Below are positions 1,012 through 60,303 of a stretch of DNA of 64,000 bases, piece after piece (positions within the stretch are counted from its first letter, which is position 1; each line of letters begins with the position of its first letter). The position numbers and the translations under genes are program-made. The DNA is from Lytechinus pictus (lineage: Eukaryota): the NCBI RefSeq assembly GCF_037042905.1, contig NC_087250.1:12712001-12776000 (forward strand). Reading direction: 5' to 3'. The notes below the pieces were generated by a model, which saw nothing but the letters and a program-made list of their open reading frames with translations, made no database searches and had not been told where the DNA came from.

Positions 1012-1218
1012 GTGGTGATTTTTTTTAACCTGATTTCTAAGAAAGCATGAATGCTTGTAAGCAAGCAACCAGAGGACCGACGGCTTAAGGTCCCCTCCGA
1101 AGGACCTGGTACTGAGGATTAATGCATTACCAAAGGGCACTAGCGCACCAAGTGGGAATCGAACCCGGGTCACCGGAATACGAGTCCCCCGCTCTACCGA
1201 CTGAGCTATCGCGCCTCC
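1012..1218 (-). mobile_element. tRNA-derived SINE, family A
   Basis: Minus strand ggaggcgcgatagctcagtcggtagagc (A box) ... gggttcgattccc (B box); (cac)n tail; TSD gtatttgttg at 1002-1011 and 1232-1241. Confidence 0.85.
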
Positions 1219-29900: not shown

Positions 29901-30317
29901 CCCTCTTCATCCTCATAGTCATTCCATTCCTTACATCATCTCTTCCATCATTGTTGTCATCAACACATTATCCTCACAACTCCCACCACCACCACTGACA
30001 TCAATATCTTCAACGTCATCATCAACATGCTACGTCATCATCATATCCATCACTATCAACATCATCAACATCGTCATCTTAATTGCCATCGTCATGCATG
30101 TCATCAATATCATAATCATCTAATTTTCCTTCATCATCCATGTCAATGTCATTGATAACAAAATCACCATCATCAAGATCATAATTATCATCAACACCAT
30201 CATCATCACCAGCATATCCATCACCATATTCAATATTACCATTATCATCATCATCCTCATCATCAAAATGATGATGATCATCATCACCATTATTATCATC
30301 ATCATCATCATCACCAC

Positions 30318-30355
<38 letters not shown>

Positions 30356-36300: not shown

Positions 36301-36485
36301 GTGCGCCTCTAATGCATACTTAAATCTTTGTGAAAAAAACCCCAGGTATGTAAAAGATGGCTTGAAATTCAGTATGCAAGGACTACGGTACTACTACTTC
36401 ACTACTATTAATATTGCTGTAATTAATACTACCATCACTGCTAAAACCACCACTACTACATGTACAACTCCTACTACTACTACTT

Positions 36486-36522
<37 letters not shown>

Positions 36523-38899
36523 AACTACTACTACTACTACTACTACTACAACTACTACTACATGTTCTAGTAAAATTACATGTACTACTTCTTTTTTTAC
36601 TACTTCTACTACAAGTAGTATTTCTACCGCTACTCTACTACTTTTACTACTAAAACAAGTACTACTACATGTACTACTTCTATTAGTACTACTTCTACTA
36701 CTATTACTACAACTACAACTAATACTACTACGACGACCTACCAACCAACCTATCTACTACTACAACTTCTTACAAGATTGTTTCAAAATGCATACATATT
36801 AAACTATTAACTTTATTACTTTATACAATAAACCTCGTACTACTACAATTCATATTTGTTAGTATCATTACAGGTAATCAAAATCATTCATTCATCACCA
36901 TGATACAATCGTTACTTACAGACGCCAACGATGTCCCTCGTTCTCATCCTACAAAAGTTTCTGAAGGATTCTGTGCCGCAATTGCTCTGGCACGGACCAA
37001 ACTCTGACCATTCCGAGAGCAGGCAGTCCCCACCACAGGGTACGTAGCATCGCTGGGTAGGGGTGGGTGGGGGCAGCCTGAAATCCTGAAGACACATGCC
37101 TGGGTGATTAGAAGAGAACAAGTTTTTAAGAGTTACTTCAATCTATTGAATTGAATTCAATACTGGTTTTATTGTGAATGGTTACATGACAAAAGTCCGA
37201 ATTCAATTTAATTCAATTCTGGTTTTATTGTGAATGGTTACATGACAAAAGTCCGAAGACTCGTATCATCTTTACAAAGTAAAAACAATGTACATGTATA
37301 TCATTACACAATACAGTAAATAGAATAATAAAATGACATTAAAATTTTAAAAAAAAATGTTTAAATGTTATGATATTAAAGGCGGGCAAAGACCAAACTA
37401 AAAAAAACAAGACAAACCCTACGCAAAAAGAAATAATTGATTCTTCATTTTTTTCAATTGTAAGTTTTTCAGAAATCCCAGACAATCCCCATCGCAAGTC
37501 AAGTTGCGGAAAAGAGAGTAGAAATAGAAAAACCACAAAAAATACTAGTTTTCCACCCCCCTCCCCTAAAAAAACCCCTCAAATACACCAAAAGTGGTGA
37601 CAACATGAAATGAAGAAGTTAATTTTAACAATTGGTAAAAAAAACTTCTTGATATTCCCAAATAAAAATGGAAATCATATTGGCAAAACAGGGGGAATTT
37701 CCAACAAGAAAACGGCACTTGCCAACTTCTGATTTTTTTAAATGTATACTGTAAAGAGAACTCCTGTAGACAAATAAAGTCAAATGATCTGCTCAGAGAT
37801 TATATGTAGGTTCAAACAAAGAAAATTATCAGAACTCTGTGGAAATAATATTTTAACGAATTTTGCCCATAGGGCTTTGTCAAGTCATGATAAATTTATT
37901 AGACACTGTATATCATCAAAGACTCACCATCTTCGGCCACCAGACCGTCGCTACGGCCGCAGTGGACCTCCCTGGTCTGTAGACCCTTCCCGCAGCTTGA
38001 CCCGATGACCTGACATGCTGACCAGCCACCAGTAACCCATTGGAATGTATAGCAAGGCTCGATGTCAATACATGGTGTGAACTGGGTAATGATACCTGGA
38101 AGAAATATAAATATTACATAGGTTATGTAGATTCGAATCAGTGATAGGTCAATACACCATCACGTGACCATAACTGCGAGGATCGCATTTGTTATATTCT
38201 AGGCTTTGACGTCACCTCAGGGAATATACTGCGTTGTATTGTCAATTGCGGCGTTATATTCACTAAGGTGACGTCACTCGCTGCATACAAGTTGCGTAAC
38301 AAGGTAGTTTATTTGATGTACGCGCTAATGTAAACGCGTCGATTGCATGAAGTACGCGCTTGATGTATTTAAAAAAAAAATCTATTATGACGTAGATGGA
38401 TTAGAGCTGTAGCAAGAATTTCGGGTTTGAGCCAGATGATGAATGCAATTTCTGATGGCGAATCCACATAGACTATATAATATAACAGATATTGCCTGGT
38501 CTATCGTTTTAATAAATAACATTTCAACTCCCCTCCGAAGCTATATTTTCCCTCGGGATGATATTTTCCCTCAGCGCTGCGCACTGGGAAAAATATAACT
38601 CCGTCAGGGAGAGGAAATGTTATATTCAAACTCTAGGTAGGCAATATCTGTATAATATTTGCTTAGTATCGGCCTTACAAAACACCAATGATGCAATACT
38701 CACTGGAACAGTGTAAATATGTTCTATTCATTATTTTTGTCTTCAAAACAGTATTCATATTTTCAGTGTCATTACAAATGAATAGCAGCAGCAGTAGAAG
38801 GATTAGGATAAGTAGTAGTAGCAGTAGACGAGTCTATACTGATAGTAGTAGTAGAAGTTGTAGTAGTAGTGGTTGTTGCAGTAGTAACGGTAATAGAGA

Positions 38900-38941
<42 letters not shown>

Positions 38942-39027
38942 CAGTAGCAGTAGCAGTAGCAGTAGCAGTAGCAGTAGTAGTAGTAAAAGTAGTAGTAGTA
39001 GTATAAGTAGTAGTAGTAGTAGTAGTA

Positions 39028-39097
<70 letters not shown>

Positions 39098-39135
39098 CAG
39101 TAGTAGTAGTAGTAGTAGTAGTGGTAGTAGTAGTG

Positions 39136-39194
<59 letters not shown>

Positions 39195-39298
39195 GGTAGT
39201 AGTAGAAGTGGTAGTAGTTAGTAGTAGTAGTGGTAGTAGTAGTAGTGGTAGTAGTAGTAGTAGTAGTAGTGGTGGTAGAAGTAGTAAAAGTAGTAGTA

Positions 39299-39353
<55 letters not shown>

Positions 39354-39358
39354 TAGTA

Positions 39359-39446
<88 letters not shown>

Positions 39447-39533
39447 CAGTAGTAGTAGTAGTAGTAGTAGAAGTAGTAGTGGTAGTAGTAGAAGTGGTAG
39501 TAGTTAGTAGTAGTAGTGGTAGTAGTAGTAGTG

Positions 39534-39581
<48 letters not shown>

Positions 39582-39582
39582 A

Positions 39583-39654
<72 letters not shown>

Positions 39655-42600
39655 TAGTAGTAGTGGTAGTAGTAGTAGAAGTAGTAGTAGTAGAAGTAGT
39701 AGTAGTAGTAGAAGTAGTAGTAGTAGTGGAAGTAGTAGCAACTGCAGAAGCAGCAGTAGTAGTAGTGTTAGCAGTCACGGTAGCAGCAGCAGCAGTAGTA
39801 TTTGCACCAGTAGTAGCAGTAGTAGACTTTTCTCCATTTATTCAATTGAACATGCTTCAAGGCAGGAATTAACATTTAACAAAAACACTCTTCTTACATA
39901 CCATTTTCATCAGTCTCCTGGGGGCAAGTGAGCCCGCCATTGGCTGTTAGAGTCAAAACATGCTTAGTCCTGGTCCTCATGGCATGTAGACCACATGAAG
40001 CACTGCAGGAGGACCAGGTACTCCATGGGCTTAGTTCACAGTCCTGCGGACAAGCTTGATCGCAAGGCCTGGATTTCGCTGGCTCAGACCAAACATCACA
40101 TTGGCTGGGATAAGCAACCAACCCTATTTGTGAAAAAAATAAATGGGATAATTTCATGAAGAGTTTTGTCAGTGATTTGCATCGACAAATGTTAAAAGCA
40201 GCTGGAAATCCTTGTTATGGGGGAATGGGATATTTTCTGACAATTAAGCTTAAAAGAAAGAGGTTGCAGGTCACTGCCAAATCCGTGGCCCCGTCTTACA
40301 AAGAGTAATTTTTTTTTCTACAGGAAATTTGCACAATGTCCTTAGTAAACAAAGAGAAGGACAATTGAATTTTCAAGAAAACAACGAATGCATGAATATT
40401 GATCATAGTTAGAAAATATTTTAAACAAACACGCAAAAATAGATGTTGATGTTGCTGGCCGTCCATAGTTGCGGTTAATCAGATCAATCACAACTCTTTG
40501 TAAGACGGGCCCAAGAAGTAACTATATAAACATTTGATGACTTGATGCATCTGTTTTTTTAATGCCAATTTGTTTCGAACTTTTGGAACGATTTGTGTAC
40601 TTGGTTGACTTTAAAAAATATCCGTTCTTATAAGTTATCTAATTTAGAAATTTGGTTTGGAACATTGGAAAGAGAACATTTTTATTTGGTAAATACCATA
40701 ATACTGTACAGCAAATATTTCATTTTTTTCATGCAAATATAGTAAAACGATTGCTCTTTTTCAATCGTTTCTATGTACTCTAACACAGTTAGAAAAAACA
40801 GAACGCTACATTTCTTTTAAACATAATCGTTCGGAGTTTCACAGAAAAAAGTGGAATATAATTACTATGTTAGAGTAAAGGGCATAGATCTATTTTTGTT
40901 GTTTTGAATTAGATCTGTTGTATATTACTTTAACCTAGCATGGTGTCTATCTATATGAATGTAAAAGAATCATGTATCTATTTCTGAGATATTATTGTTA
41001 AAATGTGAATTGCAAATAAAACTCATTAAAAAAAAAAAAAAAAACATTTGATGACAAGGAAAATAAATTCTAACAAGTGGAATGCCTCTGGCCGTCTCAC
41101 CTGCATCACGCGATTCAATATAGCAGCAGTGCTGATTTTGAAAACTACTATAACTCGCACAAGATGTTCAGTGATACTTGGTTACTCTTATTTCCACGTT
41201 TTATGAACTAGACCAATACACTTATAGAGATATGATGGCAATTCAACAAATACCCCCAACGTGGCCAAAGTTCTTTGACCTTACATGACCTTTGACCTTG
41301 ATCATGTGACCTGAAACTCGCACAGGATGTTCAGTGATACTTGATTACTATTATGTCCAAGTTTTATGAACTAGACCAACACACTTTCAAATTTATGGCT
41401 GTAATTCAACAAATACCCCAATTTGGCCAAAGTTCATTGACCCTAAATGACCTTTGACCTTGATCATGTGACCTGAAACTTGCACAGGATGTTCAGTAAT
41501 ACTTGATTACTATTATGTCCAAGTTTCATGAATCAGATCCATAACTTTCAAAGTTAAGATGGTAATTCAACAGATACCCCCAATTCGGCCAAAGTTCATT
41601 GACCCTAAATGACCTTTGACCTTGGTCATGTGACGTGAAACTCATGCAGGATGTTTAGTGATACTTGATTAACCTTATGTATAAGTTTCATGAGCTAGGT
41701 CCATATATTTTCTAAGTTATGATGACATTTCAAAAACTTAACCTTAGGTTAAGATTTTGATGTTGATTCCCCCAACATGGTCTAAGTTCATTGACCCTAA
41801 ATGACCTTTGACCTTGGTCATGTGACATGAAACTCAGGCAGGATGTTCAGTAATACTTGATTAACCTAATGGCCAAGTTTCATGAACTAGGTCCATATAC
41901 TTTCTAAGTTATGCTGTCATTTCAAAAACTTAACCTCAGGTTAAGATTTGGTGTTGACGCCGCCGCCGCCGTCGCCGTCGGAAAAGCGGCGCCTATAGTC
42001 TCACTCTGCTATGCAGGTGAGACAAAAATCATCAAAGGTAAAAATTAAAGGTATGTTAATGACCTTTCTGCAAGTACAATAAGATATAGATTCGCCCTAA
42101 TTTAAGATCATGCGATAACATACACATCCTCCACTCCCTGGGGAATGTTCCTGTATTCACAAAGCATACATGTACCGGTTTCCTCCTCACAGACCACGCT
42201 CCGTGACTGGTATCCGATCCCTTCTCCGCAGCTCGCCGTTCCATTCATCAGACATCCTTCCTCTTCAGGACCTCCTTCTCCGCACGTGGCTGTTGCATTC
42301 AGTTGACATTCTCCCCATGCCGTGGCCTGCCAGGAGTAGGAATGACACGATACGTGGAGGTTGCATGGTTTGGTCTGGGTCAATTCGTCCTCCGGGAGGC
42401 AGGGGTTCAAATCTTTGTTGAATGGGTAGGCTGGTAGTAAAAGAGAGATCATGGAAATAGAAAATGAGTCACAGATATCAAGACATTCTTTTCTGACGCA
42501 ATGTTAGCCTAGAGTTAGGTAGGTTGGAAGTCATTGGAGGTGTACATGTACTAGTATATCATTCAGACAGAGTCTAAAAGTGATATAGCGCCCTCTCATG

Positions 42601-45600: not shown

Positions 45601-48600
45601 GGGATATAAGGTTGTAGGTTTTGTCTTTAAAGGTGAATACCAGTTGTGGTAAAGATCTCAAAATGAGTTCAAACATAATCCAATCAAATTACCAACAAAG
45701 TGTTTGTATACATGTATAAGTAAAAAATATGTGCGAAATGACACTGGTAGAAAATGCGTAATTGCAGAGAAATTAGCAAAATAAGCACAGAATTCCACTA
45801 AATGTCGGGTAGTTTTCCAAGGAATATTAAGCTCTCCCACATACATTGTATGCTTTTCTGTGCAAGTGGTCATCAGAATTATCGATTTTCAGCTAAGATT
45901 TCATGATCTTACAAAGATAAGTTTATATTAATGTACCAGATGTAGATCAATGATGATAATGTAACCATTAAACTTGATTTAAAAGACTTTGTCATTAAAT
46001 AATTGCTTGCTGCAATTACTTTCTTTTACCTTTAACTACATGCAAAAAGGAAGAAAAAAAAAAAACATTTCATTGGAAGCTGTACAGAGATTAGTGATGA
46101 TAGAGTGGGATCACTCTATGACAATTTGGTCTGATAAGGGTTCTAACTTTGTATGTCAACAAACAATCTTGATTGAAAAGAGTTTTTTTCGGATTTAAAG
46201 ATTTCAGAAATGATAATTACAAGTCTTGTTTTCAGAACTTAGTCTGAATGCATATTGATTGAATTCGCTTTACTTTTGTCCTCTTGTGAGGAAAACTAAT
46301 GAAATTCCTATCACTCCTCTTCTTGTCATCATCTTCTACTTTTTTCTTCTTTATTTTTCTTCCTCACCCTTCTCTCTTTTCCTCTTGTTCTTCTGATCTT
46401 TCTTCTTTTCTTGTTCCCTTCTTCTCCTCCTTCTTCTTCTTCTCCTTCTCCTTCTCATCTTCTTCCCCCTTTTTTTCCTTCTACTTCTTCCTCTTCTTCT
46501 CTTTCTCCCTTCTTTTTGATCTTCTTCAGCTCCATTATCTTCTTTGTCTTCTGCTTTTTTCTCTTCTTCTTCTTCTACTACTATTAAATTCTTCTTCTCC
46601 TACTATTAAATTCTTCTTCTCCTTCCTCTTCACTTTGGACTCTTCTACTTCATCTTCTTTTGACATTTTTTCTTTTTCCCTCATCTTCTCTCCCACTCCC
46701 CTTTGTATATACCAAGCAGTGGCAGAACGTGACCCGGAGGAGACAAATGATTGGAAGGGCTCTGTATATTTTTGTAAACAATGCTGTGCCCCTCCAATGC
46801 TTTGTCTCCTCCGGTCACGGTCCGCCACTGATATCAAGAGAAAACAAAGTTCATTGATTGTATACAATAATATTTTAAGGTGGAAGTGATGTCATATTGA
46901 AAATAAACCTTCTCCATTTCCTCTCTGAAAAACAATGGCCAGCATTCAGACTTTTATTAACCAAATAGCTTGTCATAGACCATTGTCTCATTCCATATAA
47001 CATTTGCTATAATGTACAATTTCTATATCAAATTTACTATCAACCAATCAGATTGACGGATTTCAGTAGCTTAAAACTGTTATTTCAAATATGTTAATTA
47101 TAACAAGTTTTATGAAATGGGCCCCAGGACCCGATACCCTTTCATTAAGCTTGCTGCCATGCCAGGAAATTTTGTGAGACATTGTGTAAATAAATACCCC
47201 CTCCCCTTTCGAGCACACAATGACATAAGTCATGTACATGCACAGTATCTTGACTGAGAACCAATATTGACAAAAAAAATTGCTTGTTCACTACCTAGCA
47301 CTAAAATCAAGCCAACTTTGTATTGATAGGATGGGGGGGGGGGACTTTTATATTCAAGTATGTTTAGCTATCTTTGAAGGCTTGTTATTCAGAAAAAATA
47401 CACTTTTGTGTTTTTGTTTGTTATCATTATTCTTTTAAGACATGGAGGTGCAAAGGGTAGGATAGAGCGTTTGTCTTGGGGCAAAAAAATATAAAATAAA
47501 TAAATGAATCAAACGCAAATACACAGAATGGTGGACAGAAAGTTGTTTTAAATAAACGAAACATAGACGAACTTAAAGTATTTTTCCTGAATTCTAGCCT
47601 AAAAAAGACTGCCTACCAAATCCTTGATTGAATGCCTAAGTACTAATTAAAAATAAACAAAAGATAGACACTACTGAAGTGTATTTTTCCCGAAAACCAT
47701 ACAAGCCATAGTCCAGGAAATAGGCTATAACACCTACTATAACCTTATACTATTTCCTTTTGATAATGTGTTAGCATGGCAACTGGTAAACTTGGAGCCA
47801 ACAATATTAATCCAATTGTTAGTGTGCTTGAAAAATCCCCCCCCCCCCCAAAAAAAAAAAATAAATAAAAAATAAAAAATAAATAAATAAATAAAAATAA
47901 CAAATTGAAAAAATAAAATCAAAATAAATAAGTACATAAATAAATAAATAAAAAAAAAAAAAATAATAATAATACAAAGTAAACCAAGATTTTCAGTTAT
48001 TTCTTCAGGATTAAAAATATCATTAAAATGTACATCATCACAAAGTTCAGGTTTGTTTTAAAACCTAATATGATATGAAAAGCTGTACAGATGAGAAAGA
48101 AGAGTGGAATTTCAGTGCAAAATTCTTGGTGCATAGAAAGATAAGTGAAGTTTGTTTAAGCTGCAACAAACTGAAAAGAAGAAGAAAAGAAATGAAAAAA
48201 AAAGAGATATCAAAATAGATGTATGTAAATGAGAAGAATGAACAAAAAATAAAGAAAAGATGAAGTAGAAGAAAAAGAAGAAATGGAAGATTACAAGGAC
48301 TAGGTGGTTCATGAATTAATCTCACCTGATTTCGCGATCAACAAATTATGCAATATGAACTTCTGACCCCCGAGATGACCTTTGACCTTATTATCCTCAT
48401 GAACACACTTGTGGTATCATTGAATGACTATTTATACCACGTAAAAATACCAAGTGTAAACACACTTGGTGCAGAAATAAAGAAATGAGAGCAAGAAAAA
48501 GTAAAATTTGACCTTCTGACCCCTAATGACCTTTGACACTATCATCCTCAACAACGCACACATTGTATTACCCTAGGATTGTATGTACCAAGTGTGGGCA

Positions 48601-51600: not shown

Positions 51601-52459
51601 AAGCAGAATTCATCAGCTACTGGTGACAGTACGTCGCTCCTGCTATCAATGCAGAAGACTTGCCTAGTCTCAATACCAGCCCCACATGGGGCACTCGAAT
51701 TCTGGGTTACTCTGCACTGCTGCCAGTCCTGATATAGAATAGAATCAAATAAAGTTTAGAATCAAGACTACCAACTGATATCTGACTATCAATGGTAAAT
51801 TGCCAATTCTTCCACTGCCAACTCGTCCACTCACCACCTGGTCCACCTTCATTTAGTAGTCTAATGCCATTCTGTCCATCAACATTTTGTCTAATGACCA
51901 TGTGGTCTAATAACCATTTGGTCCATGCGATCATCACTCCTCATCATCATCACTATCATTCATCACCACAATAATCGTCTTCATCCTCATCGCGATCAAC
52001 CCCACCACCACTACTATCCCCCTCCTTCTCCTCCCCACCCCCTCCCACCTCCTCTTCCTCCTGCTTATCATCAACATCATCATTGTCCTCATTTGTCAAT
52101 ACCACCACTATCACCCTCCTCCTTCTCATCATCACCATAGCGACCATTGGTACCAATGTTATGACCTACCTGGAGATATACCATTCGTACTGGGGACATG
52201 CTGTCATGTTTTGAATCAAGCAAGGCTAATGATCCGTCAGAGGGGGGCATGGGAGCCCCCCATCATCATCACCACCATCACCATCATCATCACCATCATC
52301 ACCATCATCATCACCACCATCACCATCATCATCACCATCATCATCACCATCATCATCATCAATTATCATTATCATCATCATTATCATCACCATCATCTTC
52401 ACCATCACCATCATCACCATCACCATCATCACCATCATCATAATCATTTATCATCATTG

Positions 52460-52492
<33 letters not shown>

Positions 52493-52501
52493 ATTATCAT
52501 T

Positions 52502-52533
<32 letters not shown>

Positions 52534-55063
52534 CATCACCATCATCATCATCACCACCACCACCACTGTCACCATCATCATCACCACAGCGACCCTTCAT
52601 ACCAACGTTATGACCTACCTGGAGATACCATTCGTACTGGGGACACGCTGTCATGTTTTGAATCAAGCAAGGCTGATGATCCGTCAGAGGGGGGCATGGG
52701 AGCCCCCCATTTGAAGCTGCCCTCAGAACCCTTCGCGTCCTCATCCTAGTGGGGGGAGGGATAAAAACTTATATTTGTGACCTTCCACCTCAAAATCAAT
52801 TTCAAATTTTCACAGAGTGAGGAAGAAGAATTATTATTTCAGATCAGCTAATATTGGAGGCACGATAGCTCAGTCGGTAGAGCAAGGGTTTCGGATTCTG
52901 GTGATCTGGGTTGAATTCCCACTTGGTGCGCTCGAGTCCTTTGGTAAGGCATTAATCCTCATAACCAGGTCCATCGGAGAGGACCTCAAGCCGTCGGTTC
53001 TCTGGTTACTTGCTTACAAGCATTCATGCTTCCGTACCAATCAGGTAAAAAATCACCACCACCATAATTTCCTATTTTTATTTATTTATTTCTGATATTT
53101 TGACAGGGTGGCCCATTCACCAATAAGTAGTGGTCTTCCATGGGGCCCTGAATAACAATAAACATATTTACAAAATGCATAACGTATGTACAGAATGTTA
53201 CGTCGGCATTAAGATTCACATTAGGATTTGAATGTAAAACGAAACATTAACAAACTTAGCAGCAAACAAAACGCAGACGGACACTCGTTTGACGTATAAT
53301 CAAATATCAATTTATCAAATTAACTAAGAAAATACTGATAATATCCATCAAATCATCAAGGTCATGCTAACACAAAATAAGCACAACAGTGGATGTTCCG
53401 CAAGTTATTTATAAATTACAAGTTCTTCTAAACATTCTCTTAAATGAAATGACAGAAGGAGCTGTTCTAATTGAATTATCAAGCTTATTCCATTCAAATA
53501 TTGAAGATACAATTGGACTACACTTGGAAGACCAAATCGATATTTTGTCTATTTACAGAGAACCTTCCCTGGTGACTTAATGTTGGTTTGGGGGTGGCAG
53601 GTCACACATGAGGATGGAATGCTTGAAAACATAAAAAGAATGCAATCACCATAATGAAATCAGTATCTGTTCAAATATCAAATGATATAATATGGACATA
53701 AAGTGAAAATAATACCAATAGGGAAAGATTTATCACAAATGGACAGTACGTATTGTCAGCAACAACTGCTATTTTTTCACAAATTAGCTTCTACAAGTCA
53801 TGAAAAAAACAAGGTGTACATGTATGCACTTCATTGGGAATAGCTATCCTGTTGCATAAACTATATTGGAAGTCAAGATTTAGCTCTAAATATTTCATTT
53901 TGTTGAGCAACAGGTATTGTAACCTGGAGAGCGTTTCATGAAAGGACTTGTCAGACGTTTTATCTGACAAGTATTGTTTTATCCGACAGTTACTATGGTA
54001 ACAGTACCTCTCAGCCCATCATAATCAAGGAAAGTTGTCAGATCTGACAACTTGTCGGATGAAAATGTTGATGAAACACTCCCCAGAGCTAACTACTTCA
54101 GAGACCTACAATTCACAGCATGTATCTACTAGTAATAGGATGCATGTCATATAGGCCTTGGATCGTAAATCTTACCTGTGACCTCCGACCTCTTGAGAGA
54201 TGGGGTCATGACAGGTCACAGAGCATTCACCCCATGCTGACCACAGGGAGACGAGGCAATCGCAGGGGACCGTGCAGATCTCCTGCCTGGGTGGCTCGAA
54301 GTTTACAGTTTGGAGACTGTTTTCAACTCCTGAAATACAGTAAGAAAACAAAATTAATAGATAATGGTAGTGTAATATCAGAGTCAATGAAATGTCATCT
54401 CTAAAAATAGAAAATATGTTCAGGAGCCTGTTGCAGAAAGAGTTGCAATCAATCGCAACTCTAAAAATCAAGTGTAACTTGATTTTCAACCAATCAACAG
54501 CGCGCATTTGGGACTTGCGATTGATTTTTTGACTTGCATTTAAACGCAACTCATTCTGCAACGGACCCCTGTTATTGTACCTTCAGTTCATCAACAGACT
54601 ACCGGTAATCATTTCACACCAGCTCCTTGACAAGAAAAAAATGTTAGTATTCAACTCTTCATGAACCATTAAAAAATTGAAATACATGCATTTTATATAT
54701 CATAACATATGGGACAACTGCTTGTATATGACATCACAATCAAAAACTTTAAATTCTAATGACTTCCTACATGCATATCTTCGATGGATTTTCCTCAAAC
54801 CTTCACCAATATTTGTTCTGATATTTAAAACAAAACTTTTTGTCAACATGAACTTCCCCTTTATTCAATAACTGAGTGAATCCTTTATGCAAATGAATTT
54901 GAAAGGGGAAATAAAGGAAAATGGTTTTAGAGATGGAGCACTCACCCGATTCACCATTCTGTAAGCATCTTTCGCCTTCTACGGTCTCTCCGATGTCATC
55001 CACGCAATCGACCTGTCTGTATCTCTGTCCAACTGCACAGGAACTTGGACCAGCGCTCGAAGG
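20866..55063 (-). CDS. THSD7A: THSD7A/B-like thrombospondin type-1 repeat, single-pass membrane protein; 5'-partial, 25 exons, 4065 nt / 1354 aa in window
   Basis: All 24 introns are GT-AG with matching phases and give one open frame. Alternating TSP1 repeat types (WSxWSxCSxxCG..RxR; C..PCPxDC) typical of THSD7, then Cys-rich modules, TM segment WKWVVGAVCMGVMILAAILCGVLVY and a short tail ending ETTC*. The symbol denotes the THSD7A/B family, not strict orthology. No further exon was found in 55066-64000. Confidence 0.88.
21100..21362 (-). mobile_element. tRNA-derived SINE, family B
   Basis: Minus strand gtggtctagtggtta..gggttcgaatctc, core gaggtgaatgggtacccggcagg. Confidence 0.8.
22473..22554 (-). 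CDS. THSD7-like exon (transmembrane)
   Basis: TWKWVVGAVCMGVMILAAILCGVLVY; phase 1 to 2. Confidence 0.85.
22943..23044 (-). CDS. THSD7-like exon (juxtamembrane stalk)
   Basis: MLKCVPEDVIGTTSGGIETNDADSNTSLYHAKR; phase 1 to 1. Confidence 0.82.
23055..23161. repeat. 30-bp GA-rich tandem repeat, about 3 units
   Basis: gaggtggggagaggaagagagagatgaaga units. Confidence 0.9.
23209..23510 (+). mobile_element. tRNA-derived SINE, family B
   Basis: tggcccagtgg A box, gggttcaaatccc B box, cccaggtgaggtgaatgggtacc core, gtgctataca..(tta)n tail. Confidence 0.82.
23882..24040. mobile_element. Harbinger-like MITE (same family as 26089-26244)
   Basis: aacacaaagatt ... aatctttgtgtt inverted ends. Confidence 0.72.
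24078..24200 (-). CDS. THSD7-like exon (second Cys-rich module)
   Basis: NGRTCYPSVGCIVDDHCPFPHTMCSKERACICQPGYYSVD; phase 1 to 1. Confidence 0.85.
24310..24855. mobile_element. MITE with long imperfect TIRs
   Basis: ttgacaaatcatggggaaat (~24376) vs atttccccatgatttgtcaa (~24794). Confidence 0.65.
25029..25403. mobile_element. MITE with ~15-bp subterminal repeats (partial relative at 51794-51930)
   Basis: ggtaaattgccaa..(cgtcta/gtcca units) ... (tagac/tggac units)..ttggaaataaacc. Confidence 0.68.
25576..25835 (-). mobile_element. tRNA(CAT)-headed SINE, family C
   Basis: GGCAGAT/ATCTGCC acceptor-like stem, A and B boxes, CTCATAA loop; body shared with 10366-10701. Confidence 0.8.
25878..26021 (-). 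CDS. THSD7-like exon (Cys-rich/EGF-like)
   Basis: VEGGCDETVKP..CVPDCTSLGSYCDNGVCKCSSGFL; phase 1 to 1. Confidence 0.87.
26089..26244. mobile_element. Harbinger-like MITE
   Basis: gggctccgtaacacaaag ... ctttgagttatggggccc. Confidence 0.72.
26662..26762 (-). CDS. THSD7-like exon
   Basis: SCPAVSASCPVFRWAVGKWDKATRSRDIWCETL; phase 2 to 1. Confidence 0.87.
27285..28806. mobile_element. Kolobok-type (TTAA TSD, RR..YY ends) non-autonomous element, hosting a nested element
   Basis: ttaa|ggacgttccacagtta ... taactgtggaacgtcc|ttaa. Confidence 0.85.
28064..28645. mobile_element. Kolobok-type MITE nested in 27285-28806
   Basis: ttaa|aggtcaagtccacccca ... tggggtggacttgtcct|ttaa with long subterminal inverted repeats. 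Confidence 0.87.
28817..28959 (-). CDS. THSD7-like exon
   Basis: VSEWSPYSSCTGNCFNSSISGQKTRVRVV..GGKPC; phase 0 to 2. Confidence 0.88.
29332..29438 (-). CDS. THSD7-like exon
   Basis: LNNDVVNPLG..KCTTWCPGDCL; aag acceptor; phase 1 to 0. Confidence 0.8.
29603..29774 (-). CDS. THSD7-like exon
   Basis: PCNIKPCFTYMWYKGNWSACQ..CGVGQEMRLVECQRSDG; phase 0 to 1. Confidence 0.9.
29880..30440. repeat. (CAT)n/(CAC)n microsatellite
   Basis: Seen directly. Confidence 0.95.
30457..30716 (-). CDS. THSD7-like exon
   Basis: CMVECPIDCQLGAFTPWSSCSAICG; phase 1 to 0. Confidence 0.9.
31375..31559. mobile_element. hAT-like MITE
   Basis: caggggcagatccagg ... cctggatccgccagtg; TSD degenerate. Confidence 0.7.
31816..32046 (-). 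CDS. THSD7-like exon
   Basis: ECVFSEWSAFTSCSQPC..GEWSTCRPIQGECGR; phase 1 to 1. Confidence 0.9.
32245..32774. repeat. (CAT)n/(CAC)n microsatellite
   Basis: Seen directly. Confidence 0.95.
32777..32933 (-). CDS. THSD7-like exon
   Basis: WAPCLPTDLKTNCGAGTQSRTINC..CHLPCQ; phase 0 to 1. Confidence 0.88.
33328..33745. mobile_element. hAT-like MITE with 5-bp TSD
   Basis: acaaa|caggattcccagc ... gctgggaatcctg|acaaa. Confidence 0.8.
33753..34039. mobile_element. Harbinger-like MITE
   Basis: agt|ggcccgtatt ... aatacgggcc|agt (3-bp TSD). Confidence 0.72.
34130..34257 (-). CDS. THSD7-like exon
   Basis: ERTRTREIMVNPVQGGRACP; phase 1 to 0. Confidence 0.88.
34859..35065 (-). CDS. THSD7-like exon
   Basis: CGAGKQSRAAIC..CSIDCEVTQWSNWSSCSQACG; phase 1 to 1. 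Confidence 0.9.
35874..36008 (-). CDS. THSD7-like exon
   Basis: ELCPHIADSDLHEFLSC..YSWTFGPWTTCLLPE; weaker donor gtctgt; phase 1 to 1. Confidence 0.8.
36123..36342. mobile_element. Harbinger-like MITE
   Basis: tttcacaaagatttaagtatg ... catacttaaatctttgtgaaa. Confidence 0.75.
36388..36770. repeat. (TAC)n microsatellite
   Basis: Seen directly. Confidence 0.95.
36920..37099 (-). CDS. THSD7-like exon
   Basis: CYVPCGGDCLLSEWSEFGPCQSNCG; phase 1 to 1. Confidence 0.88.
37928..38095 (-). CDS. THSD7-like exon
   Basis: PCYTFQWVTGGWSACQVIGSSCGKGLQTREVHC; phase 1 to 1. Confidence 0.9.
38780..39826. repeat. ~1 kb (AGT)n microsatellite
   Basis: Seen directly; source of the poly-S/V/T/L/Y ORFs. Confidence 0.97.
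39902..40123 (-). CDS. THSD7-like exon
   Basis: CDQACPQDCELSPWSTWSSCSASCG; phase 1 to 1. Confidence 0.9.
40287..40512. mobile_element. Harbinger-like MITE (same family as 50055-50330)
   Basis: cccgtcttacaaagag ... ctctttgtaagacggg. Confidence 0.78.
40542..41041 (+). mobile_element. 3' fragment of an L1/Tx1-type LINE with poly(A) tail
   Basis: Decayed HLFF*CQFVSNFWNDL..KYFIF; AATAAA then poly(A); 14-bp TSD aaacatttgatgac at 40528-40541 and 41042-41055. Confidence 0.8.
41071..42028 (-). mobile_element. Helentron/HINE (DINE-1-like) non-autonomous element with internal ~163-bp tandem array
   Basis: Subterminal IR gtctcacctgcat (~41094) / atgcaggtgagac (~42011); end hairpin gtctcac..gtgagac next to an A/T run; (gcc)n microsatellite; ~5 units of gacctttgaccttg.tcatgtgac. 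Confidence 0.75.
42176..42430 (-). CDS. THSD7-like exon
   Basis: CHSYSWQATAWGECQ..CGEGIGYQSRSVVC; phase 1 to 1. Confidence 0.88.
42680..42910 (+). mobile_element. SINE family B, internally deleted
   Basis: gggttcaaatccca B box, ttccttgaatgc, (tta)n tail. Confidence 0.7.
43021..43284 (-). CDS. THSD7-like exon
   Basis: RWTKCFLNRGYDDCGPGTRHRAVYC..CVVNEWSDWGDCSVSCG; phase 1 to 1. Confidence 0.9.
43403..43996. mobile_element. Kolobok-type MITE, same family as 28064-28645, opposite orientation
   Basis: ttaa|aggacaagtccacccc ... ggggtggacttgacct|ttaa. Confidence 0.87.
44960..45302 (+). mobile_element. tRNA-derived SINE related to family B, longer core
   Basis: A/B boxes, cgacccaggtg..aaatgggtacccgg, gctccccagggag, gtgctatataaa..(tta)n tail. 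Confidence 0.78.
45349..45585 (-). CDS. THSD7-like exon
   Basis: CYLDCPVDCEVGHWTHWSSCTKSCGEG; phase 1 to 1. Confidence 0.9.
46305..46700. repeat. CT-rich (CTT)n low-complexity tract
   Basis: Seen directly. Confidence 0.85.
46717..46830. mobile_element. Small hAT-like hairpin MITE
   Basis: cagtggcagaacgtgacccggaggagacaaa ... tttgtctcctccggtcacggtccgccactg; TSD ataccaag/atatcaag. Confidence 0.82.
49662..49946 (+). mobile_element. tRNA-derived SINE, family B
   Basis: tggtctagtgg, gggttcaaatccc, gacccaggtgaggtgaatgggtacccgg. Confidence 0.82.
50055..50330. mobile_element. Harbinger-like MITE
   Basis: ccgtcttacaaagagttgca.ttgatccaatcaatcac ... gtgattgattggatcaaatgcaactctttgtaagacgg. Confidence 0.8.
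50829..51325. mobile_element. Kolobok-type MITE (partial relative at ~54660-54862)
   Basis: ttaa|aggggaagttcaccctga ... tcagggtgaacttcccct|ttaa. Confidence 0.87.
51365..51560 (+). mobile_element. Degenerate SINE family B
   Basis: gggttcaaatct, cccaggtgaggtgaatgggtaacc, gcgctatataaa. Confidence 0.7.
51593..51728 (-). CDS. THSD7-like exon
   Basis: DWQQCRVTQNSSAPCGAGIETRQVFCIDS; phase 0 to 1. Confidence 0.88.
51930..52586. repeat. (CAT)n microsatellite enclosing a partial exon duplicate
   Basis: Seen directly. Confidence 0.93.
52619..52745 (-). CDS. THSD7-like exon
   Basis: MRTRRVLRAASNGGLPCPPLTDHQPC..YEWYLQ; phase 2 to 0. Confidence 0.88.
52856..53063 (+). mobile_element. tRNA-derived SINE, family A
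   Basis: Co-linear with the reverse complement of 1012-1218. Confidence 0.85.
53085..53560 (-). mobile_element. CR1/L2-type LINE 3' fragment
   Basis: Minus-strand WNKL..FKRM-like remnant, cagggcc..ccctg 3' hairpin, (aaat)n tail. Confidence 0.5.
53926..54084. mobile_element. Harbinger-like MITE
   Basis: gagcgtttcat ... atgaaacactc; internal gacaa/ttgtc repeats. Confidence 0.68.
54176..54329 (-). CDS. THSD7-like exon
   Basis: EICTVPCDCLVSLWSAWGECSVTC; phase 1 to 2. Confidence 0.88.
54424..54569. mobile_element. Harbinger-like MITE
   Basis: gttgcagaaagagttgc ... gcaactcattctgcaac. Confidence 0.72.
54946..55063 (-). CDS. THSD7-like exon (most 5' in window)
   Basis: PSSAGPSSCAVGQRYRQVDCVDDIGETVEGERCLQNGES; phase 0 to 1. 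Confidence 0.85.
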
Positions 55064-57170: not shown

Positions 57171-60125
57171 TACTAGTAAAATTTTACTAAATTAATCAAT
57201 ATACATAAAAAAATATTCAACAATAAAAGAGTAGTCCTACATACATACGTGTACACAAGAGAGGCAAAACAATTAACTTTCATCAGTGCCGGAAGAAAAA
57301 ATAATGGAATTTTCAAGTTAAAATTGAATCATTTGGAGGAAAGTGGTCAACTATGCACCTACATGTAATCCTAACTTTGGGGTAATTTTCAAACACTTTA
57401 AAAATACAGTATCGTTATTTTATCACTGAAAGTGAGGTGTTTTCATTTATACAGTCGGCAACTACAACCACATTTTTTTCAGAGTAGATTTCTAATTTTC
57501 TACATTATCATGTGCATTTCGCGTTCTACTGTACATGCCTTAATAAGGAGCAATGTGCAGGGAACAATTATGCTTCTCAAATTTCAAAGCTGTTACACGG
57601 AAATTGATTACAACAAAATTCTGTTTCATGCTACATGTACAAAAAAAAGATATTTTTCTTTTTTATCACTCTATATCTTACACCTTTTGTAAATTTTGAG
57701 CCAGGTGTTAAGATCTCATATAACAAATCACTGATCAAAAGTGCATGATGATATTTATTTTGGTACATGAGTAATTAAAACATTTCCTCAGGCGATCATC
57801 CGCAGGCAACATAACAGCTACCACCTGGAGAAAGAAGTTTGCCAGCTATCCTCAGATGATTTTACTCTTTGACTCATTATGAAATAATGTGTTTGTACAT
57901 AATGCAACTTAGCTGATTAACTCTTAACATGCCATGAACACATATCTGTGCATCCACTGGACTGCCACGAAAACTATTTTGTGCAATGGTCATACAGCTA
58001 TTGTTATGCCTATTGCATTTTGAGGAGTGCATTGCATGCATGGGTGATTCCATTATTCAATTCAGCTTAATATGGTCAAGAGGTTTAACATTATTGTCTC
58101 AAGAGTGATTCCCTGTTTATTATAAATAAAACAATGAAATATAGACTCTTTGAAAAAAAATGGCACTCGCTGATTACAGTGAATATGGCACATTAAGAGT
58201 GAAATGTTTGGGATGAGAGACTTTTCAAAATTACTTTTGAATATTAAAATAATACTTTAATTTGTTGTTCATTCGATTTTTACAATTTCATGATTTCAAT
58301 CCTTCAATTAATTGCAATCTTTGAAACTTGCCGGAATAATGATTTGCATAGTATGGCTCAAGTGATAATGTATCAAGATAAATATAGTCTAGCAAGTGCT
58401 GTCATTTTTATACATGTACATTATATTGTTTTTATACAAAACCTAGGTCATAATCATGTATTGTATATATGTTTTTACTTTGTAAATATGATAATATGAG
58501 TCTTCTGAATTATGTCATGTAATCATTTCTCACAATAAAAACAAAACTGTATAGAATTGAATTGAATATCCTTAGCACACTCACGGTCAGTATTACAAAC
58601 TGTGCCCAGAAAGAGAGAGAGAGAGGGAGAGAGGGGGGGGGGGCACTTACATGTACTTCCAAAATCACTTGTTCTCATTATTGGTACACCTCTTACCAGT
58701 CACAAAAGAAGTTTCCTCCTAAGAAGATTTTGACAAGGAGACTTGACAACCTTTTCTAAATTATAGGTACCAAACACATAACTGAAAATATGCTTTTTAA
58801 TCTTTATACATGTTACGTGCTGTTTGAAGGCAGCCACTCAAGTTGTTTTAAAAAATGAAACAAATGTTTAAAGTTTTAAACAACTTTTTGTTTAAAATAA
58901 CAGCTTTAAACATTGTGCTTAAAATGTAAACAGCATTTTCATGCTAAACACTGTACACTCATTGTAGGCAGTATGGAAATTGATTTTTAAACAGGTCTAC
59001 ATGTCTACCAACTCTGAAAGGTGACTGACAGCCAAGACAGAGGAACAAACTACTTATAAATTTTCCAGAAATAGGAAGGAGCATTTTTAAATTTTATACA
59101 CATATTAAACTGGGCCTCTTTCCCCCTAAAATATGAATATTTCCTAATAGAAACACTCATTTGAAAAGAGTGATATCAGATACTTATCAGTGTCTTCCAA
59201 GAGGAAAGCGATGCATAGCTTGCTTGCTGGTTCACCCAGCATGAAATGACCAATCTACACAAACATTTCCATTTTGCCCCCCAAAATAGCATGATATTTT
59301 TATCAGTTTTCACTTTTTTACACAATTTTGGTGAGGATATCTATAGCTTGGAACCATGGAGAATAGTATTGAAGAAGTATGAAAAATAATTGTACAATCT
59401 CCCTATCGCTTTTTTTTGGGTGACCCCACCCTCTTAGCCCGTGATAAGAATGACATTTATTTCTTAATTTTTTATATACATGTATATTTTTAAATATTTT
59501 TTTAAACTTTCCAACAAATGACAGCGTCTCTAAAAAACAGCAAGGCCAGAGGTTGTTACAGATTGATACAGATTGGCTCTGAATTGTGCCAGCCAAACAT
59601 TTGGAGTTATATTTTATAAACTTAAGGATTAACTATTAAGTAAAACACAAATTCAAAACTTCCAAGCTACATACAAATTGAAAAAAAAATCTAAGGTTAG
59701 AAATCCTGTGTTTGACAGGTAACTTAAAACTGAAGCTGTCCTGAATTAAAAGACATTGTTCAAAATCAAATAAAAACAAACATTTCAAAGTTGACGATGA
59801 ATAAGAATAATTTATCACCATGAATTTTGTCATTCTCTGTAACAGTGTTGTAAATCATAACAGTCTATAACCAATGCATAATGATAAATAGACTTTAGCT
59901 CTGTCAAACAGCAACGTTTCTTCATTAAATCTTGCTTTTCTTAATTGGATTTTGGGCTAATTATTGCCACCCTCCTTTCCGTTCCATCCTCTTTTTAGAC
60001 ACTTGGTCAATTAAGTCATCAAGAGAGATGTTTTAATGTGTCAAACACTGTCTGTATCTTTAGGCTACCAGACAACACATCAAGATAACGCTGTATACTC
60101 ATCCCCATTCACACAACAAATAAAA

Positions 60126-60303
60126 GCGTGTGTATTTGAATTTTGTCAGACGTGTATCAATCAGATATGATTATTTACGTCTGGGACCGACCTTTAACGT
60201 CACCATCCGAAAGACGTGACCAGGGCTCGAACCTCGAACCTCTGCATCAATTTGTAACTTCCCCACATAGCTTGGATTACAGGCGCACGCCACAACGCCC
60301 AGT
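60126..60303 (-). mobile_element. Candidate 7SL(SRP RNA)-headed SINE
   Basis: Minus strand ACTGGGCGTTGTGGCGTGCGCCTGTAATCCAAGCTA (7SL Alu-domain-like), GGTTCGAGCCC B box, core shared with SINE family A, 3' hairpin, ACACAC tail. Confidence 0.65.

What the first reader, a model, noticed from the sequence alone, without database searches (positions are those of the whole stretch)
60126..60303. Candidate 7SL/SRP-RNA-derived (Alu-like) SINE in an invertebrate genome
Seen (minus strand): ACTGGGCGTTGTGGCGTGCGCCTGTAATCCAAGCTATGTGGGGAAG, a spacer, GGTTCGAGGTTCGAGCCC (doubled B box), TTTCGGATGGTGACGTTAAAGGTCGGTCC (core shared with the tRNA-SINE at 1012-1218), hairpin CAGACGT..AATCA TATC TGATT..ACGTCTG, then AAATACACAC. 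The first 36 nt match the human 7SL 5' end as I recall it (GCCGGGCGCGGTGGCGCGTGCCTGTAGTCCCAGCTA) at 28/36 without gaps, including the UGU motif of the SRP9/14-binding Alu domain. Established: 7SL-derived SINEs are rare (Alu/B1 in Euarchontoglires, plus a hagfish family); I know of none described in echinoderms. Inference: an independent Alu-like origin, made by grafting the 7SL 5' domain and a B box onto an existing SINE core, possibly exploiting SRP9/14 ribosome targeting. Caveats: one copy in the window and no clear TSD.
Basis: partly seen in the sequence, partly recalled or inferred. Interest (0 to 1): 0.85.

Follow-up and report, generated by a model that had tools for sequence, protein, structure and literature searches.

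The report
Sea urchin SINE with 7SL head
One short retroposon copy in a sea urchin genome has, in place of the usual tRNA-like front end, the 47-base front module of signal-recognition-particle (7SL) RNA, the module human Alu elements depend on; only this one copy could be examined.

Summary
The first 47 nt on the minus strand (60303-60257) match the Rfam metazoan SRP RNA model over its whole 5' Alu-domain module: 30 bits, E 3.2e-6 locally and 5.9e-4 window-wide. 35 of 45 consensus positions are identical and 12 of 14 model pairs form. No tRNA or 5S match appears there.

The remaining ~130 nt belong to a SINE lineage. It comprises a B box, a Deu/Nin-type conserved core, a stem-loop and an A/C-rich tail. 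Three marine-metagenome contigs carry near-identical bodies with different, tRNA-box-like fronts. None of 27 comparator SINE loci has an SRP-like head.

So the element is a 7SL/tRNA-SINE chimera. The B box was inherited from the SINE parent, not grafted. The host is a Lytechinus sea urchin.

Copy number, native 7SL and transcription could not be tested. There is one copy in the window and no target-site duplication.

My odds:
- One-off or low-copy template-switch chimera: 0.45.
- Member of a real 7SL-headed SINE family, which would be the first in an invertebrate: 0.35.
- Chance or other explanation: about 0.2.

The parts
60257..60303 (-). 7SL/SRP-RNA-like head: the complete 5' domain of the Alu domain (helices 2, 3 and 4 plus the U-turn), starting at model position 1. 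It contains a 7SL-type box A at element nt 5-14.
   Evidence: Rfam RF00017: 30 bits, E 3.2e-6 and E 5.9e-4 window-wide. 12 of 14 model pairs form. 35 of 45 consensus positions are identical (my count). Box A matches 8 of 10 positions of the human box A quoted in PMC7245038.
60241..60256 (-). 16-nt spacer (TACAAATTGATGCAGA). The junction between the 7SL-derived and SINE-derived parts lies within or beside it.
   Evidence: The SRP model aligns poorly from here on. TACAAA.TGA recurs at the matching place in sister copy L023, which is weak evidence that the spacer already belongs to the parent SINE.
60223..60240 (-). Pol III box B of tRNA type (GGTTCGAGCCC, element nt 71-81), preceded by a 7-nt tandem duplicate (GGTTCGA).
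   Evidence: It aligns with the GGTTCGAATCC / GGTTCAAATTT boxes of L015 / L023.
60184..60222 (-). Highly conserved SINE core of Deu/Nin type: TGGTCACGTCT plus TTCGGATGGTGACGTTAAAGGTCGGTCC.
   Evidence: The 28-nt core is identical in L010, L015 and L023. The degenerate pattern hits 26 metagenome loci and 2 window sites against 0 in shuffles. By eye, the same motif lies in the Deu part of BivaMD-SINE1 (supplement of PMC4824008).
60147..60183 (-). Nested stem-loop: a 7-bp outer stem CAGACGT/ACGTCTG with an inner stem around AATCA/TGATT. It is the presumed recognition element for the partner LINE.
   Evidence: Predicted in the minimum-energy fold. Conserved in L010, L015 and L023.
60126..60146 (-). 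A/C-rich tail (ACAAAATTCAAATACACACGC), the 3' end of the element.
   Evidence: Sister copies end in AAAACCCAAACACA(CA)n or (AACC)n at the same place. The nhmmer body model ends at 60129.
60122..60125 (-). TTTT run in the flank immediately after the tail, a possible Pol III stop. There is no TTTT inside the element.
   Evidence: That it acts as a terminator is inference.
1012..1218 (-). Separate tRNA-Thr-headed SINE carrying a variant of the same core (1074-1101). It serves as a comparator and is not part of the element.
   Evidence: ARAGORN finds tRNA-Thr(CGT) at 1143-1214. Pattern match.

Best explanation
The element is a chimeric retroposon copy.

Composition:
- The first 47 nt are the complete 5' domain of the Alu domain of 7SL (SRP) RNA, starting at RNA position 1.
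- The remaining ~130 nt are the box-B half, Deu/Nin-type conserved core, stem-loop and A/C-rich tail of a SINE lineage. Other members of that lineage carry tRNA-box-like heads.

Origin (inferred): a LINE reverse transcriptase copied the SINE RNA from its 3' end, switched template onto 7SL RNA at the base of its 5' domain, and ran to the 7SL 5' end. The same route is proposed in the literature for the 5S/partial-tRNA heads of some SINEs and for the hagfish SINE1.

Consequences (inferred from sequence):
- The result is a hybrid Pol III unit. A 7SL-type box A sits at nt 5-14 and a tRNA-type box B at nt 71-81, about the spacing seen in 7SL and Alu.
- There is no internal TTTT, and a TTTT run follows the tail.
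- Its RNA would present the module that, in human cells, suffices for SRP9/14 association and retrotransposition.

I judge this copy slightly more likely to be a one-off or low-copy chimera than a member of an amplified family.
For: Shown:
- Head against the SRP model: 30 bits, E 3.2e-6 and E 5.9e-4 window-wide. It is aligned from model position 1 and 12 of 14 pairs form. All 3 helix-2 pairs are kept even though both outer pairs differ from the consensus on both sides.
- No tRNA or 5S hit on the head.
- Body against sister copies: 101 of 125 positions match L015, 94 of 116 match L023 and 88 of 119 match L010. The 28-nt core is invariant, and the sisters' 5' parts are different.
- 0 of 27 comparator SINE loci hit the SRP model at E<=1.

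For low copy number:
- 1 copy in 64 kb.
- 0 of 3 sister bodies found elsewhere carry the head.
- No TSD.
- A private 7-nt duplication in box B.
- Papers of 2020 and 2026 know no 7SL SINE outside Euarchontoglires and hagfish.

From papers:
- A 46-nt 5' Alu domain is necessary and sufficient for SRP9/14 association and supports retrotransposition in HeLa cells (passages of PMC12199147).
- Template switching is the explanation offered for composite SINE heads (passages of PMC4824008).
Against: - The SRP score is well below Rfam's gathering score (30 against 70), because only 47 of 299 positions are present.
- The native 7SL of this species was not available, so direct derivation is not shown.
- Template-switch chimeras as I recall them usually carry the whole 5' partner RNA, not an internal breakpoint.
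- A break exactly at the end of a complete structural module, intact boxes A and B at Alu-like spacing, and the absence of internal terminators are all more expected of a selected, active SINE than of a dead one-off.
- A randomly drawn window is more likely to hit a multi-copy element than a unique one.
- The sister heads are called tRNA-like only from their box A/B motifs. ARAGORN calls no tRNA in 6 of 6 loci tested, 3 of them the sister copies, and L015 gives only a 13.6-bit tRNA-like hit.
Confidence: 0.45

Rival explanations
1. It is one member of a real, amplified 7SL-headed SINE family in Lytechinus or wider echinoids. That would be an independent (third) origin of 7SL-derived SINEs. It would be transcribed by Pol III from the hybrid 7SL box A / tRNA box B promoter. 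The minimal 5' Alu domain would recruit SRP9/14 and ribosomes, and the conserved stem-loop and tail would engage a stringent-type partner LINE.
For: - The 7SL part is exactly the complete 5' domain (nt 1-47), with its structure kept: 12 of 14 pairs.
- That same module is experimentally sufficient in human cells (passages).
[quoted passage not shown] There is no internal TTTT, and TTTT follows right after the tail.
- The hagfish SINE1 arose the same way, from a 7SL piece and an older tRNA-SINE, and uses a non-L1 partner (read in parts 1-2).
- Sampling argument (inference): a single random 64-kb window is far more likely to contain a member of a family of hundreds or thousands than a unique chimera.
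Against: - Only one copy was seen and there is no TSD.
- 0 of 3 sister bodies from metagenomes have this head.
- The exact core has no match in genome contigs or viral contigs, though those collections are not expected to hold sea urchin DNA.
- No paper found reports such a family.
- The formal SINEBase criteria are unmet or untested. They require >=100 copies and >=60% identity to 7SL over >=60 nt; the overlap here is 47 nt.
Confidence: 0.35
2. The head is not derived from 7SL. It would be a diverged tRNA-type or other head, or unrelated flank, that resembles the small G+C-rich two-hairpin fold of the 5' Alu domain by chance or convergence.
For: - The score is 30 bits against a gathering score of 70.
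- The fold energy of the head is no better than shuffles, z -0.4.
- The finding was picked from a very large scan, which raises the multiple-testing burden.
- No native 7SL was available for comparison.
Against: - E is 5.9e-4 even against the whole window and all 4227 families.
- The match sits in the right orientation, exactly at the 5' end of an independently defined SINE body, and starts at model position 1.
- 35 of 45 positions are identical, including both loops and the U-turn.
- There is no tRNA or 5S hit.
- 0 of 27 other SINE loci give any SRP hit.
Confidence: 0.1
3. It is an assembly or contamination artefact, or alternatively a single-copy exapted Pol III small-RNA gene of the kind of primate BC200, not a mobile element.
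For: - There is a single copy and no TSD.
- The possible transcription unit is intact.
Against: - The head differs from the consensus at 10 of 45 positions and is joined seamlessly to a sea-urchin-type SINE body inside ordinary sea urchin sequence, so a 47-nt contaminant join is implausible.
- No conservation or expression data support a gene.
Confidence: 0.05

Closest known systems
SINE1-1_EBu, the hagfish 7SL-derived SINE (Kojima 2020, PMC7245038; read in parts 1-2)
   Same: - A 7SL-derived head joined to parts of an older tRNA-headed SINE lineage by chimera formation.
- The host lies outside Euarchontoglires.
- The tail is not of L1 type.
   Different: - The hagfish element keeps 96 nt of the 7SL 5' region plus the 7SL 3' end, so it has a full Alu domain with the central deletion and 7SL's own boxes A and B. 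It has 2363 full-length copies, ~17-bp TSDs and an identified RTE partner.
- Here only the 47-nt 5' domain is present and box B comes from the parent SINE.
- Here the body is a Deu/Nin-type core, one copy is known, there is no TSD and the partner is unknown.
Alu / B1 / FLAM and other Euarchontoglires SINE1 (as summarised in PMC7245038)
   Same: - A head from the 7SL 5' end, with box A near nt 5-15 and box B near nt 70-85.
- The same SRP9/14-binding 5' domain.
   Different: - Those families share 7SL regions 1-63, 76-83 and 267-299, have poly(A) tails and use L1 as partner.
- Here 7SL stops at nt 47, and there is a conserved core, a stem-loop and an A/C-rich tail.
Composite 5S rRNA / partial-tRNA heads of some vertebrate SINE families (passage of PMC4824008 citing Nishihara et al. 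2006). That these families are DeuSINEs is my recollection.
   Same: - A Pol III small-RNA 5' piece sits in front of a partial tRNA part.
[quoted passage not shown]
   Different: The captured RNA there is 5S rRNA; here it is 7SL. I did not see those sequences.
Deu/Nin-DC conserved-domain tRNA SINEs, such as the sea urchin SINE2-3_SP named in PMC4824008 and BivaMD-SINE1 in its supplement
   Same: - The core motif GTCACG..TC.TTCGGA.G..AC.TTAAA..GGTCCC is visible in the Deu part of BivaMD-SINE1. I compared it by eye only.
- It also occurs in 26 metagenome SINE loci.
- Box B, body and tail are organised in the same way.
   Different: - The box-A half of the head is replaced by 7SL sequence.
- Only a short (~40-nt) stretch of the 70-330-nt Deu domain is recognisable.
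- The label 'Deu/Nin' rests on position in a published alignment, not on a scored comparison.
SA46 / AY46 minimal Alu domain constructs (PMC12199147, passages)
   Same: An RNA carrying only the ~46-nt 5' Alu domain. That domain associates with SRP9/14 and supports retrotransposition in HeLa cells.
   Different: Those are engineered human constructs with poly(A), driven by L1 ORF2p. Here the module occurs naturally in a sea urchin element with a different tail, and nothing has been tested.

Membership tests
SINE1 (7SL-derived SINEs: Alu, B1, SINE1-1_EBu) | The 5' part is derived from 7SL RNA. | tested here: met
   RF00017: 30 bits, E 3.2e-6 and E 5.9e-4 window-wide. It is aligned from model position 1, with 35 of 45 consensus positions identical. 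Only nt 1-47 are covered. The native 7SL was not compared.
SINE1 (7SL-derived SINEs: Alu, B1, SINE1-1_EBu) | A full Alu domain: 7SL 5' region plus 3' region with the central deletion (regions 1-63, 76-83 and 267-299, or 1-96 plus the 3' end in hagfish; PMC7245038). | tested here: not met
   Beyond nt 47 the model alignment is poor, with many non-pairs. The sequence from box B onwards aligns with sister SINEs instead.
SINE1 (7SL-derived SINEs: Alu, B1, SINE1-1_EBu) | An interspersed repeat with many copies (SINEBase: at least 100 per genome). | not testable with these tools
There is 1 copy in the 64-kb window.
SINE1 (7SL-derived SINEs: Alu, B1, SINE1-1_EBu) | SINEBase criterion: at least 60% identity to 7SL over an overlap of at least 60 nt. 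| tested here: not met
   Identity is about 78% (35 of 45), but the overlap is only 47 nt.
SINE1 (7SL-derived SINEs: Alu, B1, SINE1-1_EBu) | Internal Pol III boxes A and B. | tested here: inconclusive
   Box A at nt 5-14 matches 8 of 10 positions of the human 7SL box A quoted. Box B (GGTTCGAGCCC) lies at nt 71-81. This is sequence only; transcription was not tested.
SINE (any) | Target-site duplications flanking the insertion. | tested here: not met
   No direct repeat of 8 nt or more lies at the ends. The best is 7 nt, displaced by 27-33 nt. Old insertions, and some LINE partners as I recall, leave none.
SINE (any) | A 3' tail shared with a partner LINE. | tested here: inconclusive
   The stem-loop and tail are conserved in 3 sister copies. 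They have no similarity to the only LINE fragment in the window, the RVT_1 ORF at 16364-17263.
Deu/Nin-type conserved-domain SINE2 (tRNA-derived) | The conserved central domain. | tested here: met
   The core pattern gives 2 window hits against 0 in shuffles and 26 metagenome loci. The motif is seen in the Deu part of the published BivaMD-SINE1 alignment (by eye). The domain name itself is inferred.
Deu/Nin-type conserved-domain SINE2 (tRNA-derived) | A tRNA-derived head carrying both box A and box B. | tested here: not met
   No tRNA is called by ARAGORN or by Rfam on the element. Only the box-B part aligns with the sister heads.

The most novel reading that the evidence does not exclude
This copy belongs to an amplified sea urchin SINE family whose head is only the ~47-nt 5' Alu domain of 7SL RNA, fused to the box-B half of a Deu-type tRNA SINE. 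That would be the first 7SL-derived SINE in an invertebrate and a third independent origin. It would also be a natural counterpart of the 'minimal Alu domain' shown in 2025 to suffice for SRP9/14 binding and retrotransposition. If so, ribosome targeting through SRP9/14 would help SINEs that use non-L1, stem-loop-recognising LINE partners as well.
Probability: 0.35. Interest if true: 0.8.

Novelty: new variant of a known kind. Interest (0 to 1): 0.55.

Why it matters
7SL-derived SINEs are known from only two origins, Euarchontoglires and hagfish. They are the main argument that SRP9/14 binding and ribosome docking drive SINE success.

A sea urchin element carrying just the 5' Alu domain on a Deu-type SINE body would matter in two ways if it proves multi-copy:
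- It would show that the minimal module defined experimentally in human cells has also been picked up by evolution, in a distant phylum and with a different kind of LINE partner.
- It would give a tractable system for testing that model, since sea urchin embryos are easy to inject.

If it is a one-off, it is still a clean snapshot of the first step by which composite SINE heads arise, through template switching onto a Pol III RNA. That would be only modestly interesting.

Tried and rejected
- **Whole-genome copy count:** no genome is held for the window.
- **Sequencing runs:** 24 runs were listed and 20 hold a part of the stretch. All have small shares (0.04-0.12) and none holds half of the words. 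No RNA holder is listed.
- **Laying reads:** Copy number, depth and expression therefore stay open, and the small shares say nothing about them.
- **Earlier findings of the scan:** 6 look-ups found nothing relevant. One search returned only two unrelated primate Alu notes.
- **Exact 28-nt core in other collections:** 0 hits in genome contigs and 0 in viral contigs.
- **Degenerate core in other collections:** 0 hits in viral contigs and 1 in genome contigs (L027). The genome holding L027 has no SRP-model hit and no copy of the body.
- **Records behind L010, L015 and L023:** these are not held.
- **Rfam at gathering thresholds:** 0 matches in the window.
- **Fold energies:** neither the head nor the whole element is exceptional, with z -0.4 and -1.0 against mononucleotide shuffles. 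Thermodynamics adds nothing.
- **Hairpin covariation:** I looked by eye at the L010 row of the alignment. Its changes in the outer stem are CpG-type and are not compensated, so they give no covariation evidence.
- **Bacterial promoter/terminator scan:** irrelevant to a Pol III unit.
- **Protein search with 'longer' lengths:** found nothing. The 'near' search gave the taxon.
- **Supplements of PMC11481361:** they do not contain the core motif. Supplement file 1 of PMC4824008 could not be searched and may hold SINE consensus sequences that bear on the name of the core.
- **Rejected idea, Meta-domain:** the shared core lies after the Meta-domain in the published BivaMD-SINE1 alignment, so it is not the Meta-domain.
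- **Rejected idea, 7SL-derived box B:** box B aligns with the sister SINEs, so it is not 7SL-derived.

Full report
**Observation.**
- a 47-nt G+C-rich head (60303-60257);
- a 16-nt spacer (60256-60241);
- a box B of tRNA type preceded by a 7-nt tandem duplicate of its first half (60240-60223);
- an 11-nt lead-in and a 28-nt core (60222-60184);
- a nested stem-loop (60183-60147);
- an A/C-rich tail (60146-60126).

A TTTT run follows directly (60125-60122) and there is no TTTT inside the element. It is the only copy in the window. The head pattern with up to 3 mismatches, the core pattern, a word-size-7 blastn of the region and an nhmmer model of the body each find only this place. No target-site duplication is present; the best flank repeat is 7 nt and lies 27-33 nt from the ends.

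**Is the head 7SL-like beyond chance?**
- At Rfam's gathering thresholds nothing in the window scores.
- With E-value reporting, the best hit on the stretch is Metazoa_SRP (RF00017): 30.0 bits, E 3.2e-6 for the 351-nt stretch. It is still E 5.9e-4 when the whole 64-kb window is searched against all 4227 families.
- The alignment is anchored at model position 1 and covers the entire 5' domain of the Alu domain. That means closing helix 2, helix 3 with its loop, the U-turn, and helix 4 with its loop.
- By my count from the printed alignment, 35 of 45 consensus positions are identical.
- A script check shows that 12 of 14 model pairs form. One of the two failures is a position that is also non-canonical in the consensus.
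- All 3 helix-2 pairs are kept, even though its two outer pairs differ from the consensus on both sides.
- After nt 47 the model alignment degrades into many non-pairs, so the 3' half of the Alu domain is absent.
- The second-best hit is mir-1268. From memory this is an Alu-embedded miRNA family, which points the same way.
- No tRNA or 5S model appears on the element at E<=10, and ARAGORN calls no tRNA there.
- The head's fold energy is unremarkable (z -0.4). The evidence is therefore the joint sequence and structure match, not stability.

**What is the rest?** I scanned metagenome contigs with a degenerate pattern built from the two window copies of the core. It returned 26 loci.
- Three of the 26 (L010, L015, L023) carry the identical 28-nt core, the same stem-loop and an equivalent tail ending in (CA)n or (AACC)n.
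- From box B to the tail, the window copy matches L015 at 101 of 125 aligned positions, L023 at 94 of 116 and L010 at 88 of 119.
- Upstream of box B the three differ entirely from the window copy. They show tRNA-style box A and box B motifs.
- That tRNA label rests on the motifs only. ARAGORN calls no tRNA in any of 6 loci tested, the three sisters among them. L015 gives just a 13.6-bit hit to a tRNA-like family.
- Of the other loci, 22 of the 26 carry a second core variant, like the window's own tRNA-Thr-headed SINE at 1012-1218. One (L020) carries a third variant.
- None of 27 comparator loci (L001-L027) gives any SRP-model hit at E<=1.
- In the supplement of the MetaSINE paper, the same motif sits in the part of BivaMD-SINE1 that follows the Meta-domain. 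The authors call that part a partial Deu (Nin) domain. I compared it by eye only, so the name 'Deu/Nin-type' is an inference.

**Synthesis.** The element is a chimera. The complete 7SL 5' domain stands in place of the box-A half of the head of a conserved-core SINE. Box B, core, stem-loop and tail are inherited from that SINE. The junction lies within or next to the 16-nt spacer. A TACAAA.TGA match to L023 hints that the spacer already belongs to the parent, but this is weak.

**Host.** The window is eukaryotic. It holds a minus-strand gene with many TSP1 repeats, an MFS exon and a non-LTR reverse-transcriptase fragment. The MFS exon is 97% identical to a protein that its source names as from Lytechinus pictus. 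It is 85% identical to one from L. variegatus and 56% identical to one from Strongylocentrotus purpuratus. The ESM Atlas lead also pointed to Echinodermata.

**How it most likely arose and would work.**
- Origin, inferred: during target-primed reverse transcription of the parent SINE RNA, the LINE reverse transcriptase switched onto 7SL RNA and copied it to its 5' end.
- Template switching is the explanation offered for composite 5S/partial-tRNA SINE heads and for hybrid SINEs (passages of PMC4824008). Chimera formation between a 7SL piece and an older tRNA SINE is how the hagfish SINE1 is said to have arisen (PMC7245038).
- Promoter, inferred from sequence: the product has a 7SL-type box A at nt 5-14, matching 8 of 10 positions of the human box quoted. 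It has a tRNA-type box B at nt 71-81. That paper places the 7SL boxes at 6-15 and 76-86.
- Transcript, inferred from sequence: with no internal terminator and a T-run just past the tail, a ~180-nt Pol III transcript is possible.
- Function, untested: the RNA's 5' end would be the module that binds SRP9/14. In HeLa cells a 46-nt 5' Alu domain is necessary and sufficient for SRP9/14 association and supports retrotransposition (passages of PMC12199147). None of this was tested here.

**Family or one-off?** This is the point that decides the interest, and I could not test it. No genome is held, the read-laying step gave nothing, and the other collections do not contain sea urchin DNA.
- For a one-off or low-copy chimera:
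  - there is a single copy;
  - there is no TSD;
  - box B has a private 7-nt duplication;
  - 0 of 3 sister bodies have the head;
  - the literature is silent.
- For a family:
  - the break falls exactly at the end of a complete structural module;
  - the promoter boxes are preserved at Alu-like spacing;
  - there are no internal terminators;
  - a random window is more likely to contain a multi-copy element than a unique one.
- My odds are 0.45 for one-off or low-copy, 0.35 for a family, 0.10 for a head that is not 7SL-derived, and about 0.05 for an artefact or an exapted gene.

**Comparison with what is known.**
- *Function and architecture.* The element works like a SINE1 with a hybrid promoter. 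Its architecture is closest to the hagfish SINE1-1_EBu and to composite-head SINEs.
- *Membership in SINE1.* One defining feature is met: the head is 7SL-derived. The full Alu domain, with 5' and 3' parts and the central deletion, is not met. SINEBase's 60-nt overlap rule is not met (47 nt). Copy number could not be tested.
- *Membership in tRNA-derived Deu SINEs.* The box-A half is not tRNA-like, so it is not a plain member there either.
- *Filing.* I file it as a new variant of a known kind.

**Is it in print?**
- Kojima 2020 calls the hagfish family the first evident SINE1 outside Euarchontoglires.
- The abstract start of a 2026 paper (PMC13023118, search listing only) still names only supraprimates and hagfish.
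- The search '7SL' + 'SINE' + 'sea urchin' found 7 papers, and two wider searches were also run. No listed title or abstract start describes such an element.
- In the SINEBase paper, the 8 passages I searched for these terms mention none.
- Repbase and Dfam themselves could not be queried, so a catalogued but unpublished consensus cannot be excluded.

Noticed in passing
window 1012-1218 (-): A separate SINE with a tRNA-Thr(CGT)-like head (ARAGORN, 1143-1214), a variant of the same conserved core (1074-1101) and an A-rich tail. It shows that the core-bearing SINE superfamily is present in this genome with an ordinary tRNA head.
   Followed up: partly
window 16364-18172 (+): Fragments of a non-LTR retrotransposon ORF (Pfam RVT_1, E 5e-28). 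It has no similarity to the tail of the element, so it is not an evident partner.
   Followed up: partly
window 12472-13467 (+): An MFS / monocarboxylate-transporter exon (Pfam MFS_1). It is 97% identical to a protein that its source names as monocarboxylate transporter 6-like of Lytechinus pictus, which gives the host taxon.
   Followed up: yes
window about 29500-55100 (-): A long minus-strand gene with many thrombospondin type 1 repeat exons (WSxWSxCSxxCG; Pfam TSP1_spondin/TSP_1). The element lies about 5 kb beyond the last such exon that I saw, on the same strand.
   Followed up: partly
window 31056-31147 and 46709-46834: Two palindromic hairpin loci. Each scores on both strands against miRNA-precursor models below their gathering scores (mir-1388 41 and 38 bits; MIR8643 42 bits and MIR408 27 bits). 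They are probably inverted-repeat elements, not those miRNAs.
   Followed up: no
window 30100-30500, 32200-32900, 36400-36800, 38700-39900, 52000-52750: Long trinucleotide-type low-complexity tracts that read open in several frames on both strands. They are microsatellite-like intronic sequence.
   Followed up: no
L027 (contig of 110,267 bases in a MAG titled Rubritalea sp.), locus 250-530: A eukaryote-style SINE with a tRNA-like head, the conserved core and an A-rich tail sits in a contig of a bacterial metagenome-assembled genome. This suggests that the contig is host (animal) DNA binned by mistake.
   Followed up: partly
L001-L026: 22 of the 26 metagenome loci, most from one assembly (contig names beginning JAAUXV01), carry one abundant SINE family with the second core variant and a long shared 3' region. 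That assembly evidently contains much animal DNA.
   Followed up: no
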